A DNA stretch of 64,000 nt from Escherichia coli (GTDB lineage Bacteria; Pseudomonadota; Gammaproteobacteria; Enterobacterales; Enterobacteriaceae), in the NCBI RefSeq assembly GCF_048403405.1, contig NZ_CP183129.1, one strand, 5' to 3'. The notes beneath the pieces were generated by a model. The model saw nothing but the letters and a program-made list of their open reading frames with translations, had not been told where the DNA came from and searched no databases. This document shows positions 3,240 through 26,612 of the stretch, piece by piece; within the stretch, counting starts at the first letter, position 1, and each line of letters opens with the position of its first letter. The position numbers were made by a program, and so were the translations under genes.

Positions 3240-3383
3240 TTGAGTGCAGTGAGCACATTGTTTTCCGGACGTGTCGGTGAATTTTCAAACAGTGTTTCCA
3301 GTGGAAACGCTGGATGATTTTTGAACACTGTTTCCACTGGAAACACCGGTGAATTTTTAAACACTGTTTTCCGGGGTAACACC
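3240..3383. promoter_or_regulatory. Array of about four 36-bp tandem units containing GTTTCC-N3-GGAAAC palindromes, upstream of traD; candidate operator array or oriT
   Basis: gtttccagtggaaac at 3294-3308 and gtttccactggaaac at 3330-3344, flanked by degenerate copies (ttttccggacgtg, ttttccggggtaac); related copy at 29781-29854. Confidence 0.55.
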
Positions 3384-3401
3384 AAAAAAGAGTTTGAGAG
3401 A

Positions 3402-23782: not shown

Positions 23783-23957
23783 AAACATATCTGATTGTTG
23801 AGTTTTCGTGATTAAAGATGGCATTGATTATTAATACGATGAAGAACCAACAAGGGGATATTTAATAAAGAGAAAAAGGAGGATGTAAAATATTCTCCTT
23901 TTTCTTTATCGGGTATTGACGAAAAAAGAAAGTTTGATTAAATTTACCACGTTACAC

Positions 23958-24176
23958 CGTTGCTTAATGCAACATTGCCAATGCTTCGGTTGTCTGAGAG
24001 AAGCGCCTACGGGTGACAACAATGCCAATCCGGCAATCTGAGAGGAACGCCTACGGGTGATTGCCACTGCCAATCCTCGGGTCATCTGAGACGAGGGCCT
24101 ACGGGCGATGACAGAACTCCGTTCGTCCTTGAAATCGACGGAGGGTGATAACAGAATAGCGTTATCATCAGGATTA
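23958..24176 (+). repeat. Structured direct repeat copy 1 (three tandem hairpin units plus two further hairpins)
   Basis: Near-identical to 26392-26612; three about 45-nt units with stems gttgtc/gacaac, ggcaatc/gattgcc, gtcatc/gatgac around a conserved loop tgaga..gcctacggg. Confidence 0.8.
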
Positions 24177-24389: not shown

Positions 24390-24436
24390 GCGTGCGTCAC
24401 TTTCGTCAAGTGAAACGAAGACAAAGTGACGCACGC
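24390..24436. promoter_or_regulatory. Long imperfect palindrome upstream of the recombinase-like gene
   Basis: gcgtgcgtcactttcgtc ... gacaaagtgacgcacgc, about 17-bp arms, no flanking T-run. Confidence 0.4.
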
Positions 24437-24824
24437 AAGTGCATACGCTCAGAACGCTTCAATACTGGTCTTACAGCAAAACTGACAATCTGACAGACAT
24501 GTAATGCATTGCTCAGAACGGCTGAAAGTCTTTCAACGCTCAACGTTTATATGATGATAAAAACGTATAACATTATGAAAAAAGGAGAAAAAACGACACG
24601 ATACCAAGGCGACGTCAGGAAACTGACGGACGGAGGTGCCCTGATAACGGGGGCCGGTCTGATGACCGCAAACAGTTCAGAGAACTGATTTGATACCTCT
24701 CAACAACTCAACCTTTTATCGCCCCGGTGCTCAGGTATCTGTCAGGTCGCAGGATGCGCAATATAAAACCGTCGCGCCGGGAAAAGGTAACCAGTTGAGA
24801 GCGAAAGAGGCGGAGAATCAGAGA

Positions 24825-25733
24825 ATGTCCAGAAGAGCAAAAGCCCTGTCCCGTGAAATGCATATCCTTGCACGTCAGGCCGGAGGGAGCTTTAAAACCA
24901 TTGCAGACCGGGTCAAAATTGCAGAACGGGTTGCGGCAGAGCTGGCCGGGTTGAATATTCAGATACGATCTGTTGAGCAACTGAAATCCCGCCATATTGA
25001 AATGTATATCCATGCCCGCAGAGAACAGAATATCAGTTTACGCAGCTGTCAAAACGAAATGTCGGCTATCCGGGCGATATTTCGTGTTGCCGGACGTCAT
25101 AAACTGGCTGACCCTAAACATGAGCGCCTCAGTAATGAGGCGCTGGGGCTTTCAGGTGCCAGCAGGGCTGGCACCCGTACCGCGATATCGGACGAGCGCT
25201 TTCACGAAGCGCTCGCTCGGATTGAGCCTTATGATCAGGGGGTGGCATTAACTATGCAGTTATCCCGTAGTCTGGGATTGAGAAATGAAGAAGCCGTGCA
25301 GTCAGTAAAATCATTACGGACCTGGCAACAGGCGCTTAAAAACGGTAAAGATCGCGTTCATGTGGTTTTTGGGACAAAAGGAGGCAGACCCCGTGAAGCA
25401 TTAGTGCCGGATAAAGCCCGTGTATTAACATTAATTAATAAAGCCATTGAATATGCGGATAAACATAACGGTTATTTAATTAATCGTCCGTCATTACATT
25501 CTGCCAAAGATCGTTATATTAATGTGATGCGACGGATAGGCGGATTTATTCACGAAGAATCAAATCATGGTTTACGGTATGCCTATGCTCAGGATGTTGA
25601 AAAATATTATCTCAGTCAGGGATTCAGTCAAAAGGAAGCCTATGCATTAACCTCCATGGATTTAGGGCATGGTGACGGTCGTGGCGATTATATTAAACGG
25701 GTTTATAGTCAGAAAGGAGATATTGAGGAATAA
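24825..25733 (+). CDS. tyrosine recombinase-like protein (integrase-fold)
   Basis: Motifs in canonical order: LGLRNEE (Arg), HGLRYAYA (HxxR), LGHGDGRGDYIKRVY (candidate Tyr nucleophile); start taken at ATG 24825 after aagaggcggaga, though the ORF could extend to 24690. Confidence 0.5.
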   Translation: MSRRAKALSREMHILARQAGGSFKTIADRVKIAERVAAELAGLNIQIRSVEQLKSRHIEMYIHARREQNISLRSCQNEMSAIRAIFRVAGRHKLADPKHERLSNEALGLSGASRAGTRTAISDERFHEALARIEPYDQGVALTMQLSRSLGLRNEEAVQSVKSLRTWQQALKNGKDRVHVVFGTKGGRPREALVPDKARVLTLINKAIEYADKHNGYLINRPSLHSAKDRYINVMRRIGGFIHEESNHGLRYAYAQDVEKYYLSQGFSQKEAYALTSMDLGHGDGRGDYIKRVYSQKGDIEE

Positions 25734-25740
25734 GATAAAA

Positions 25741-26352
25741 ATGAAAGTCTGTTTAATTATTTTGTTTATTAATTTTGCTTTTTGTTTTCCGTTAATGGCG
25801 AAGACGTTATTTTTAGGTGATTCATTAACGGCTGTTTATGAAATGTCAGCAAAATATGTTTTGGATGAAAAAATAAAAACAGAATATGTTTCCGGTTCGG
25901 GGTTAATAAATAAAAGTAAAAAAGATTGGATCGCTTTCGTGAATAATTTCGATTTGCGGGAGTTTGATAATGTGATTATTAGTCTCGGAACAAATGATTT
26001 TGTTCAATATGGTTCGGATGAATGGCTGAAATATTACAGTCTGGTATTTCAATTCATTGCTGAAATTCAAAGTGAAAATCCGTTAGCGACAATTGTCTGG
26101 ATATCTCCACCACATTTAAAAAATCCGGAACATGAACGTTATTTAATACATACCCGGCATATAATTAAACACAGTGCGATGTTATTAAATATTCATTATC
26201 TGGATATTAATCAGCCTCATATATTAGGAACGCAATGGCAATCTGTTATTCATAATGAAACTGTACGAACTGATGATGGAATACATATTACCCGTAAAGG
26301 GGGAGTACGGGTGATCAGAGAAGTGGTAAAAATCCTGAATGGGCAGGATTGA
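25741..26352 (+). CDS. secreted SGNH/GDSL-family hydrolase (esterase/acylhydrolase)
   Basis: Signal peptide then GDSL block (LFLGDSLTA), GTND block, C-terminal DDGIH; very low GC; RBS gagga. Confidence 0.6.
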   Translation: MKVCLIILFINFAFCFPLMAKTLFLGDSLTAVYEMSAKYVLDEKIKTEYVSGSGLINKSKKDWIAFVNNFDLREFDNVIISLGTNDFVQYGSDEWLKYYSLVFQFIAEIQSENPLATIVWISPPHLKNPEHERYLIHTRHIIKHSAMLLNIHYLDINQPHILGTQWQSVIHNETVRTDDGIHITRKGGVRVIREVVKILNGQD

Positions 26353-26391: not shown

Positions 26392-26612
26392 CGTTGCGTA
26401 ATGCAACTTGCCAATGCTTCGGTTGTCTGAGAGAAGCGCCTACGGGTGACAACAATGCCAATGTTCCGGCAATCTGAGAGGAACGCCTACGGGTGATTGC
26501 CACTGCCAATCCTCGGGTCATCTGAGACGGGAGCCTACGGGCGATGACAGAACTCCGTTCGTCCTTGAAATCGACGGAGGGTGATAACAGAATAGCGTTA
26601 TCATCAGGATTA
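26392..26612 (+). repeat. Structured direct repeat copy 2
   Basis: Same orientation as 23958-24176; differs by 3 substitutions and two small indels. Confidence 0.8.

What the first reader, a model, noticed from the sequence alone, without database searches (positions are those of the whole stretch)
24390..24436. 17-bp-arm palindrome between the first structured repeat and the recombinase gene
gcgtgcgtcactttcgtc and gacaaagtgacgcacgc form a long inverted repeat with a roughly 12-nt spacer and no T-run, so it is not a typical intrinsic terminator. Its position upstream of the recombinase-like gene makes it a candidate operator or recombinase core site.
Basis: seen in the sequence. Interest (0 to 1): 0.35.

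Follow-up and report, generated by a model that had tools for sequence, protein, structure and literature searches.

The report
Conserved hairpin between STAXI and EFASI
The palindrome is real: it is one copy of a strongly conserved, apparently undescribed stem-loop that lies between two catalogued but unexplained motifs (STAXI and EFASI), upstream of a recombinase and anti-restriction operon in enterobacterial conjugative elements, and it does not have the layout of an operator or a classical recombinase core site.

Summary
The inverted repeat at 24390-24436 exists as described: 14 perfect pairs, a bulged C, 3 more pairs, a 12-nt loop and no T-run. It is rarer than chance allows.

It lies in an ICEPm1-like integrative conjugative element, between a STAXI motif (23958-24115) and an EFASI motif (24593-24744). 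It is 389 nt upstream of a PF12834/PF12835 tyrosine-recombinase gene.

Of 80 loci chosen only for a homologue of that gene (50-100% identity, many Enterobacterales genera), 73 carry a hairpin with the same invariant 9-bp core, GCGTCACTT/AAGTGACGC. Four more have one mismatch. The stem below the core, the pair above it and the apical stem vary with compensatory changes. The distance between the two cores ranges from 10 to 23 nt in these loci.

The same STAXI-hairpin-EFASI unit also occurs on small ColE1-like plasmids that have no recombinase.

These facts argue for a folded single strand. They argue against a duplex operator or a core site with a fixed spacer.

A conserved sigma-70-like promoter sits just upstream of STAXI, and no conserved promoter lies before EFASI. 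The sense strand folds better. My best reading (confidence about 0.4) is a protein-recognised stem-loop in a roughly 870-nt structured leader RNA. Single-stranded-DNA roles remain open. Rfam has no family for this hairpin.

The parts
23916..23944 (+). Sigma-70-like promoter (TTGACG, 17-nt spacer, TAAATT). Its -10 hexamer ends 13 nt before STAXI.
   Evidence: Found. A promoter-like site in the same register (-10 ending 12-16 nt before the STAXI start) is present at 25 of 39 upstream STAXI copies in related loci.
23958..24115 (+). STAXI motif, copy 1 (three pseudoknot-type repeats spaced 44-48 nt apart).
   Evidence: Rfam RF01728, 112.1 bits against a gathering score of 40.5. The repeats are family D1.
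24390..24436 (+). The hairpin of the finding: 14 pairs, a bulged C24404, 3 more pairs, and a 12-nt loop.
   Evidence: Conserved in 77 of 80 integrase-selected loci.
24394..24402 (+). Invariant left core, GCGTCACTT.
   Evidence: Invariant in all 52 distinct aligned sequences.
24424..24432 (+). Invariant right core, AAGTGACGC.
   Evidence: Invariant in all 52 distinct aligned sequences.
24431..24442 (+). Possible alternative 3' mini-hairpin, GCAC-GCAA-GTGC. It shares the distal nucleotides of the right arm.
   Evidence: Read directly from the sequences. Most group-1 relatives have GCGC-GNA-GCGC at the same place (listing). The window's A:T substitution is matched on all three strands of the pairing. 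This is inferred and was not tested statistically.
24488..24494 (+). Conserved ATCTGAC block, 52 nt 3' of the hairpin.
   Evidence: Conserved in both subgroups of loci. It resembles the (C)AATCTGAGAG core of the STAXI repeats (family D4).
24593..24744 (+). EFASI motif.
   Evidence: Rfam RF02957, 78.1 bits against a gathering score of 51.2.
24825..25733 (+). Tyrosine-recombinase-like gene (302 aa; PF12834 Phage_int_SAM_2 plus PF12835 Integrase_1).
   Evidence: Candidate catalytic residues (R153, K185, H248-x-x-R251, H282, Y289/Y294) are invariant in 20 homologues.
25741..26352 (+). SGNH/GDSL hydrolase gene (present in this lineage only).
26392..26551 (+). STAXI motif, copy 2, heading the small-ORF/ArdC/CbtA block. 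No hairpin or EFASI follows it.
   Evidence: Rfam, 123.3 bits. 96.8% identical to copy 1 over 222 nt.

Best explanation
The palindrome is the central stem-loop of a long structured leader (about 870 nt: STAXI, about 275 nt, hairpin, ATCTGAC block, EFASI). This leader is transcribed from a sigma-70 promoter just upstream of STAXI and runs into the recombinase gene and the small-ORF/ArdC/CbtA 'establishment' operon of this family of MPF_G/MOBH conjugative elements.

The hairpin forms within one strand, the sense strand, most probably in the RNA. Its invariant 9-bp helix, flanked by a bulge or internal loop, is the recognition site for a conserved protein.

I favour a double-strand-specific processing or stability site that separates or stabilises the STAXI and EFASI-mRNA parts and so sets expression of the downstream operon. 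On small plasmids the same RNA is made as a free-standing non-coding RNA.

Shown here: the hairpin, its conservation and covariation, its fixed place in the unit, the promoter-like site, and the orphan copies. Inferred: that the folded molecule is RNA, that a protein reads the core, and the processing or stability role.
For: - Conservation: 73 of 80 loci chosen only for the recombinase carry the exact core, and 4 more have one mismatch.
- Covariation: 9 pairs never vary. The pair above the core is G:C in 25 sequences and U:A in 24. The pair below the core takes all four Watson-Crick forms. The covariation score is 0.187 against 0.063 in shuffles (0 of 500 reach it), and sliding the partner columns destroys the pairing.
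- Apical stems change sequence but keep pairing, for example CCGT/ACGG, CCCGC/GCGGG and ACGGC/GCCGT.
- Transcription: a promoter-like site sits at a fixed distance upstream of STAXI in 25 of 39 cases. No conserved promoter lies in the 160 nt before EFASI. The unit always has the orientation of the downstream genes.
- Strand: the sense strand folds better in 30 of 43 apical variants against 12 for the antisense strand. It has more pairs (264 against 244) and more G:U pairs (13 against 7). Whole-hairpin folding agrees. Two of the one-mismatch cores are T:G wobbles on the sense strand.
- STAXI and EFASI are curated as RNA motifs, and Rfam notes the order STAXI, several hundred bp, EFASI, integrase. 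Both were detected by RT-qPCR in vesicle (OMV) preparations from an E. coli strain (PMC12370729; PMC2864571).
Against: - A fully paired 9-bp helix that never varies is unusual for an RNA element. It is more typical of DNA hairpins read by proteins.
- Many apical loops are GNA triloops or GNYA tetraloops, including C-GAA-G (GCGAAGC). From general knowledge, these are best known as DNA mini-hairpin motifs rather than GNRA RNA loops.
- Wobble counts in the basal stem do not favour either strand (5 G:T against 7 A:C).
- The strand preference is modest (about 1 kcal/mol) and the sequences are related, so the p-values are not independent.
- No candidate binding protein or nuclease has been identified, and no transcript-end data exist for this locus.
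- The elements that carry the unit all pass through single-stranded DNA stages.
Confidence: 0.4

Rival explanations
1. The hairpin acts in single-stranded DNA as a priming or early-expression signal, comparable to ssi, sso or Frpo elements. It would fold on the strand exposed during conjugative entry, relaxase-driven rolling-circle replication of the excised ICE, or lagging-strand synthesis of small plasmids. A host enzyme (RNA polymerase, primase or primosome) would recognise it to start complementary-strand synthesis and/or transcription of the establishment genes.
For: - The unit heads a one-directional block of small ORFs plus ArdC and CbtA, like the leading regions where Frpo-type elements sit (PMC11541004).
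- The STAXI authors themselves raised a single-stranded-DNA role.
- Orphan units lie about 1 kb downstream of the ColE1-type origin. In 4 of 4 plasmids with an RNAI hit, the complement of the Rfam strand is the lagging-strand template.
- ICEclc-type elements replicate through TraI and oriT (PMC6561031), so a single-strand origin would be useful.
- The invariant helix and the GNA/GCGAAGC loops look DNA-like.
Against: - The strand predicted to be single-stranded (the template or lagging strand) is the complement of the strand with the better hairpin signals.
- No -35/-10 pair can be placed in the stem, which is too short (17-22 bp) for an Frpo-like promoter.
- The oriT and the transferred strand of this ICE family could not be established here.
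- The orientation on small plasmids may simply reflect shared ancestry of the rop-HTH-unit block.
Confidence: 0.25
2. The folded hairpin (as single-stranded DNA or a cruciform) is the substrate or docking site of the PF12835 tyrosine recombinase, or of the MOBH relaxase. It would be an oriT-like or attC-like site. Orphan copies on small plasmids would then let those plasmids be mobilised or conducted by a co-resident element.
For: - The hairpin is very tightly linked to the recombinase gene (77 of 80 loci).
- An invariant core would fit a shared protein specificity across elements.
- There are precedents for tyrosine-recombinase-like atypical relaxases whose oriT has GC-rich inverted repeats next to the gene (MpsA of SGI1 and TcpM; PMC6414798).
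- A MOBH relaxase needs an inverted-repeat hairpin at its nic site (PMC6736028).
- The small plasmids with orphan units are typed non-mobilisable and have no relaxase. In Pantoea sp. BRR-3P one co-resides with a 163-kb MPF_G plasmid that carries a hairpin of the same subtype together with the recombinase.
Against: - No conserved nick-like sequence lies directly next to the hairpin. The 5' flank is not conserved, and the nearest conserved block (ATCTGAC) is 50-70 nt away.
- Only one conserved box lies in a 17-22-bp helix, too little for two recombinase monomers.
- The attC R-box signature is absent.
- The ICE has a standard TraI_2 relaxase and its own P4-type integrase.
- Similarity to MpsA was not tested. 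A profile of the recombinase family matches no solved structure by sequence.
Confidence: 0.15
3. One reading: a duplex-DNA operator for a dimeric regulator, or a classical tyrosine-recombinase core site (two inverted arms around a 6-8-bp crossover region).
For: It is an inverted repeat with invariant 9-bp half-sites upstream of a recombinase gene. In well-known systems such as Cre/loxP, recombinase target sites lie near the gene (general knowledge).
Against: - The spacing between half-sites varies from 10 to 23 nt.
- There are compensatory changes outside the half-sites.
- Bulges make the arms unequal.
- There is no partner copy.
- The site is far from both the promoter and the start codon.
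- Orphan copies exist without the gene.
Confidence: 0.05

Closest known systems
STAXI (Rfam RF01728) and EFASI (RF02957) motifs
   Same: The hairpin lies between them on the same strand and in the same order in ICEs, large MPF_G plasmids and small ColE1-like plasmids. Rfam's own text notes that EFASI lies several hundred bp downstream of STAXI and upstream of integrase genes.
   Different: Neither model covers the hairpin, and no Rfam family matches 24390-24436 even at E up to 10. The hairpin goes with EFASI and the recombinase rather than with STAXI as such: the second STAXI copy has no hairpin.
Frpo/ssi single-stranded-DNA promoters of plasmid leading regions, and sso elements of rolling-circle replicons
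   Same: They are structured non-coding elements upstream of one-directional anti-defence or establishment genes in conjugative DNA. They are orientation-dependent hairpins with some conserved stem sequence (PMC11541004; otherwise general knowledge).
   Different: The stem is far shorter than Frpo (about 300 nt), and no -35/-10 pair can be placed in it. The better-folding strand is the sense strand. A normal duplex promoter lies upstream.
Integron attC sites and the CTX-phage attP(+): folded single-strand substrates of tyrosine recombinases
   Same: An imperfect hairpin with an unpaired base, a variable terminal structure and a conserved stem segment, next to a tyrosine-recombinase gene.
   Different: Only one conserved box is present, and it lies in the middle of the stem. 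There is no R-box (GTTRRRY) signature. The helix is too short for two monomers. The copy is single rather than part of an array. The attC and attP features are recalled from general knowledge, and only the sequence comparison was made here.
oriT of SGI1 with MpsA, and oriT of the gonococcal island with the MOBH relaxase TraI
   Same: GC-rich inverted repeats next to a tyrosine-recombinase-like gene (SGI1), and a hairpin required by a MOBH relaxase (gonococcal island).
   Different: No nick site or conserved flanking nucleotides were identified. In the gonococcal island it is the structure of the repeat, not its sequence, that matters, whereas here the sequence is invariant. Mobilisation was not tested.
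RNase III-type processing hairpins in phage and operon leaders (for example lambda sib and T7 R1.1)
   Same: A helix of about 20 bp with a small internal loop or bulge, no U-tract, inside a long transcript that includes a recombinase gene.
   Different: No cleavage data exist. RNase III sites are not known to need a 9-bp invariant sequence. This comparison rests on general knowledge only.

Membership tests
Intrinsic (Rho-independent) terminator | A GC-rich stem-loop followed directly by a T/U-run. | tested here: not met
   On the + strand no T-run follows the stem in the window or in the 61 variants. The + strand terminator scan does not report it. The only overlapping hit is a different 8-bp stem on the - strand.
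Classical tyrosine-recombinase core site (lox, FRT, dif type) | Two inverted binding arms separated by a fixed 6-8-bp crossover region. | tested here: not met
   The invariant cores are 21 nt apart in the window and 10-23 nt apart across loci.
Classical tyrosine-recombinase core site (lox, FRT, dif type) | A partner site elsewhere in the element or host genome. | tested here: not met
   No second copy in the window, even allowing up to 2-3 mismatches per arm. One copy per ICE-carrying E. coli genome.
Duplex-DNA operator of a dimeric regulator | Half-sites at a fixed centre-to-centre distance, overlapping or next to a promoter. | tested here: not met
   Spacing varies. The nearest conserved promoter-like site is about 440 nt upstream. 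None lies between the hairpin and EFASI.
Conserved structured element (hairpin selected for pairing) | Base pairs kept through compensatory changes in diverged homologues. | tested here: met
   Six pairs have changes on both sides. Pair 19:41 is GC 25 / UA 24. The covariation score is 0.187 against 0.063 in shuffles (0 of 500 reach it), and slid controls collapse to 28-50% paired.
STAXI-EFASI unit | Located between a STAXI hit and an EFASI hit on the same strand. | tested here: met
   Seen in the window, Pantoea and Duffyella plasmids, small plasmids and metagenome contigs.
Any Rfam 15 family | A covariance-model match at the hairpin. | tested here: not met
   No hit overlaps 24390-24436 at E up to 10.
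Frpo-type single-stranded-DNA promoter | -35 and -10 hexamers brought into duplex form inside the hairpin. | tested here: not met
   Only a GTGACG (-35-like) element lies in the stem, and no conserved -10 lies 16-18 nt away on either strand (read from the alignments).
Frpo-type single-stranded-DNA promoter | Lies on the transferred strand of the leading region. | not testable with these tools
   The oriT and the transferred strand of this ICE family could not be established.
Integron attC-like folded site | Conserved R box (RYYYAAC/GTTRRRY) at the base of the stem, an L box, and extrahelical bases. | tested here: not met
   The base of the stem is variable and the conserved box is internal with an unrelated sequence. 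A bulged base is present in most variants.
MOBH-type oriT | Hairpin with a nic site and required conserved nucleotides directly next to it (3 nt 5' of the repeat in the prototype). | tested here: inconclusive
   The 5' flank is not conserved across subgroups. The 3' flank is conserved only within group 1.
XerCD multimer-resolution site (cer/dif type) | XerC arm, a 6-8-bp spacer, and the XerD arm TTATGTTAAAT. | tested here: not met
   The 3' flank resembles XerC arms (GCGCATAA, GCGTACAA) but no XerD arm follows. Each small plasmid has a separate genuine cer-like site elsewhere.
Tyrosine recombinase (the neighbouring gene) | Phage-integrase-type N-terminal and catalytic domains with the R..K..HxxR..H/W..Y residues. 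| tested here: met
   PF12834 (1.3e-35) and PF12835 (4.4e-51). R153, K185, H248, R251, H282 and Y289/Y294 are invariant in 20 homologues. Catalytic activity was not tested.

The most novel reading that the evidence does not exclude
The hairpin is a folded single-stranded-DNA site, oriT-like or attC-like. Its invariant 9-bp helix would be read by the PF12835 tyrosine recombinase acting as an atypical relaxase or single-strand recombinase, as proposed for MpsA and TcpM. The small 'non-mobilisable' ColE1-like plasmids that carry an orphan STAXI-hairpin-EFASI unit would then be hitchers, mobilised in trans by MPF_G elements.
Probability: 0.12. Interest if true: 0.8.

Novelty: new member of a known kind. 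Interest (0 to 1): 0.45.

Why it matters
STAXI (described in 2010) and EFASI (2017) are widespread motifs of mobile elements whose function is still unknown, and it is not even settled whether they act as RNA or as single-stranded DNA.

This work adds a third, sharply defined part to their unit: a hairpin with an invariant 9-bp helix and clear covariation around it. That gives a small, mutable handle for experiments, such as pull-downs with the folded RNA or DNA oligonucleotide, compensatory mutants and end mapping.

The work also shows that the whole unit has a conserved promoter. It heads the recombinase/ArdC 'establishment' block of a large family of enterobacterial ICEs and plasmids. It also travels as an orphan on small plasmids typed as non-mobilisable. 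That last point could bear on how such plasmids spread.

Tried and rejected
- **Plasmid identity:** megablast of the region against plasmids found nothing. Relatives appeared only with the distant mode.
- **Apparent 810-bp insertion:** some E. coli hits seemed to carry an insertion. This was an artefact of joining a second STAXI match, and the locus is collinear.
- **Strand choice from wobble pairs in the basal stem:** undecided (5 G:T against 7 A:C).
- **XerCD site:** rejected. No XerD arm follows the hairpin, and the small plasmids have separate cer-like sites.
- **HTH_17 gene next to orphan units:** it is not related to the recombinase.
- **oriT and transferred strand of this ICE family:** not found in the papers available here, and the key paper is not held. 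The region upstream of traI holds only a terminator-like repeat.
- **Internal promoter before EFASI:** none is conserved.
- **Metagenome pattern scan:** more than half of the matches (43 of 81) were unrelated terminator-like or other hairpins that share the 9-mer and have no shared neighbouring genes. The bare pattern is therefore not specific.
- **STAXI-like match on a 260-kb E. coli plasmid:** uninformative context.
- **EFASI paper supplements:** not held.
- **Solved relative of the recombinase:** a sequence search found none.
- **Not run:** structure prediction and a covariance model of the hairpin, because neither would separate the rival explanations.

Full report
**Observation.** There are 14 perfect pairs (24390-24403 with 24423-24436), then a bulged C24404 and three more pairs (GTC/GAC). 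This leaves a 12-nt loop, and no T-run follows. Either strand folds far better than its shuffles (+ strand -30.4 kcal/mol, z = -5.95; - strand -27.8, z = -5.5). In the whole 64-kb window only two perfect inverted repeats of at least 14 bp with a loop of at most 25 nt exist. Only 1 of 40 dinucleotide shuffles reaches 14 bp.

**Where it is.** The window is an E. coli chromosomal integrative conjugative element (ICE) of the ICEPm1 type. It carries the TIGR037xx ICE genes, TaaP, TraI_2 and an integrase next to tRNA-Phe.

- Rfam places a STAXI motif at 23958-24115, an EFASI motif at 24593-24744 and a second STAXI at 26392-26551.
- No Rfam family covers the palindrome, even at E up to 10.
- The gene that starts at 24825 encodes a 302-aa protein with PF12834 and PF12835 domains. 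The usual tyrosine-recombinase residues are invariant among 20 homologues.
- Downstream, all on the same strand, come an SGNH hydrolase gene, STAXI copy 2, a run of small ORFs, ArdC, CbtA, DUF1281, the MOBH relaxase and the ICE integrase.
- Rfam's description of EFASI already says it is usually found several hundred bp downstream of STAXI and upstream of integrase genes (quoted in PMC12370729). The STAXI authors left open whether STAXI acts as RNA or as single-stranded DNA (PMC2864571).

**Conservation.** Pantoea and Duffyella MPF_G plasmids have the same order: STAXI, hairpin, EFASI, recombinase, STAXI. I then fetched 80 loci from one-genome-per-species contigs using only a profile of the recombinase (50-100% identity; Providencia, Proteus, Citrobacter, Erwinia, Serratia, Photorhabdus, Yersinia, Pantoea, Pectobacterium, Brenneria, Dickeya and others).

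- In most of these loci the strongest hairpin upstream of the gene is this one, usually 280-530 nt before the start codon.
- 73 of the 80 carry the exact core GCGTCACTT...AAGTGACGC. Four more have one mismatch, and two of those are T:G wobbles on the sense strand. Three have none; one of them has only 578 nt of upstream sequence.
- There are 61 distinct versions.
- In an alignment of 52 distinct sequences, nine pairs never vary. The next pair inward is G:C in 25 and U:A in 24. The next pair outward is G:C, C:G, A:U or U:A.
- The covariation score is 0.187 against 0.063 in shuffles (0 of 500 reach it). Sliding the partner column drops pairing from 83% to 28-50%.
- The basal stem has 2-8 further pairs of differing sequence, often after a bulged G.
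- The apical part differs entirely between lineages but usually forms its own short stem, for example CCGT-GTCA-ACGG, CCCGC-GACA-GCGGG, ACGGC-GCAAA-GCCGT or GC-GAA-GC.
- The distance between the invariant cores ranges from 10 to 23 nt.

**What this excludes.**

- A dimeric duplex-DNA binder or a tyrosine-recombinase core site needs fixed spacing (6-8 bp for the latter). Neither would select for compensatory changes outside the contacted bases.
- The arms are also made unequal by a 5' bulge in one subgroup, and by a 3' bulge plus a conserved T:G in the other.
- There is no partner copy in the window. There is only one copy per ICE-bearing E. coli genome.
- The same unit occurs without any recombinase gene on small ColE1-like plasmids of Rahnella, Pantoea, Cronobacter and Mixta (4.4-8.4 kb, typed non-mobilisable). 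The motifs were found on all of them, and the hairpin was confirmed in the two I scanned for it.
- It also occurs on 2.6-6.5-kb metagenome contigs (6 of the 38 family members found by a pattern scan).
- Those small plasmids have a separate cer-like XerCD site, so the unit is not their dimer-resolution site.

The operator or core-site reading is therefore not supported, although the link to the recombinase gene is real.

**RNA or DNA, and which strand.**

- A sigma-70-like promoter lies just upstream of STAXI (window 23916-23944). The same register, with the -10 hexamer ending 12-16 nt before the STAXI start, recurs at 25 of 39 upstream STAXI copies.
- No promoter is conserved in the 160 nt before EFASI.
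- STAXI, hairpin, EFASI and the recombinase gene should therefore be one sense transcript with a leader of about 870 nt.
- The sense strand folds somewhat better than its complement. For whole hairpins the mean difference is -1.0 kcal/mol with RNA parameters and -0.4 with DNA parameters. For apical parts the sense strand is better in 30 variants and worse in 12, with 264 against 244 pairs and 13 against 7 G:U pairs.
- STAXI and EFASI RNAs were reported by RT-qPCR in vesicle (OMV) preparations from an E. coli strain.
- On this basis I favour an RNA stem-loop whose invariant helix is a protein-recognition site, most plausibly for processing or stability (confidence about 0.4). The protein and the effect are inferred, not shown.

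**Why the DNA readings stay open.**

- A 9-bp helix that never varies is more typical of DNA hairpins read by proteins.
- Many loops are GNA or GNYA, including GCGAAGC. To my knowledge these are the classic stable DNA mini-hairpin loops rather than GNRA RNA loops.
- All carriers of the unit pass through single-stranded stages.
- The unit heads a one-directional small-ORF/ArdC/CbtA block that is conserved across the ICE family. This resembles the leading regions where Frpo-type elements lie (PMC11541004).
- On four small plasmids with an RNAI hit, the unit lies about 1 kb beyond the origin. There the complement of the Rfam strand is the lagging-strand template.
- That strand, however, is the opposite of the better-folding one. 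No -35/-10 pair fits in the stem. I could not establish the oriT or the transferred strand for this family.
- A role as a hairpin substrate of the recombinase or the MOBH relaxase has precedents (MpsA and TcpM, PMC6414798; the gonococcal island TraI, PMC6736028). It would also explain orphan copies on small plasmids that co-reside with a large MPF_G plasmid carrying the same hairpin subtype.
- Against that role, no conserved nick-like sequence adjoins the hairpin.

**Other conserved features of the unit.**

- An ATCTGAC block lies 50-70 nt 3' of the hairpin in both subgroups. It resembles the core of the STAXI repeats (family D4).
- In group 1 the distal nucleotides of the right arm can also pair with a downstream segment: GCGC-GNA-GCGC in most relatives and GCAC-GCAA-GTGC in the window, with matching substitutions. 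This hints at an alternative conformation. I read it from the sequences and did not test it statistically.

**Novelty and verdict.** The hairpin is a conserved structured element that is absent from Rfam 15, and the sources I could consult do not describe it. It belongs to the known but functionally unexplained STAXI-EFASI unit. I rate it a new member of a known kind, with moderate interest (0.45). Its function is unproven, but it offers a compact and testable handle on a long-standing open question.

Noticed in passing
window 3270-3390 (palindrome 3292-3346): This is the only other long perfect palindrome in the window (17-bp arms, 21-nt spacer). It lies within three direct repeats of about 30 nt, each containing GTTTCC(A/C)(G/C)TGGAAAC, just upstream of the traD start. 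It could be an oriT or a regulator-binding array for the transfer genes.
   Followed up: partly
window 23916-23944: A sigma-70-like promoter (TTGACG, 17-nt spacer, TAAATT) lies 13 nt upstream of STAXI. A promoter-like site in the same register is found at 25 of 39 STAXI copies upstream of recombinase homologues. This implies that STAXI marks the 5' end of a transcript.
   Followed up: yes
window 24023-24033 (STAXI repeat 2): TGCCAATCCGG is identical to 11 nt of the R64 shufflon sfx site, that is its core GTGCCAA plus the start of the right arm TCCGG (sfx sequences in PMC4176322). Repeats 1 and 3 carry insertions at this point, so this may be coincidence. It could also hint that the STAXI repeats are recombinase sites.
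   Followed up: partly
window 24488-24494; related loci: An ATCTGAC block 50-70 nt 3' of the hairpin is conserved in both subgroups of loci. It resembles the (C)AATCTGAGAG core of each STAXI repeat.
   Followed up: partly
window 24431-24442: A possible alternative mini-hairpin, GCAC-GCAA-GTGC, reuses the end of the right arm. Relatives have GCGC-GNA-GCGC at the same place, often GCGAAGC. The adjoining sequences GCGCATAA, GCGTACAA and GCGCGCAA resemble XerC-binding arms, but no XerD arm follows.
   Followed up: partly
window 26392-26612: The second STAXI copy is 96.8% identical to the first over 222 nt, including about 60 nt of 3' flank with a small extra hairpin. It has no promoter-like site, hairpin or EFASI of its own. 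It directly follows the SGNH hydrolase gene and heads the small-ORF/ArdC block.
   Followed up: partly
L085, L086, L091-L094 (small ColE1-like plasmids): Orphan STAXI-hairpin-EFASI units lie convergent to a short gene just beyond rop. On L091-L094 this is annotated as an HTH-domain gene, confirmed as HTH_17 on L091. All have the same orientation relative to RNAI and the direction of replication. Each plasmid has a separate cer-like XerCD site.
   Followed up: yes
L037, L043, L044, L048, L052, L053, L057, L061 (about 10 nt upstream of the recombinase start): A different palindrome is present here, with arms of up to 19 bp (12 perfect in L053) around an 8-nt spacer of the form TCACNNNG, for example GGTGAGTCAGGTATTCCGT-TCACACGG-ACGGAATACCTGACTCACC. 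The arms co-vary between loci. It has the geometry of a recombinase core site or of a translation-blocking hairpin. It is absent from the window.
   Followed up: no
L050, L051, L055, L067, L074, L075, L078, L084 (about 670-715 nt upstream of the recombinase start): Further hairpins of 13-20 bp occur in Brenneria, Lonsdalea, Pectobacterium and Acerihabitans loci, for example GCTCCTTACTGGATTTCTATGGAATAGAAATCCAGTAAGGAGC. Their relation to STAXI was not examined.
   Followed up: no
L096-L175 (metagenome contigs): 43 of 81 exact matches to the core pattern are unrelated hairpins with no shared neighbouring genes. Some look like terminators and others are long GC-rich palindromes. The 9-mer inverted repeat alone is therefore not a specific marker of this family.
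   Followed up: yes
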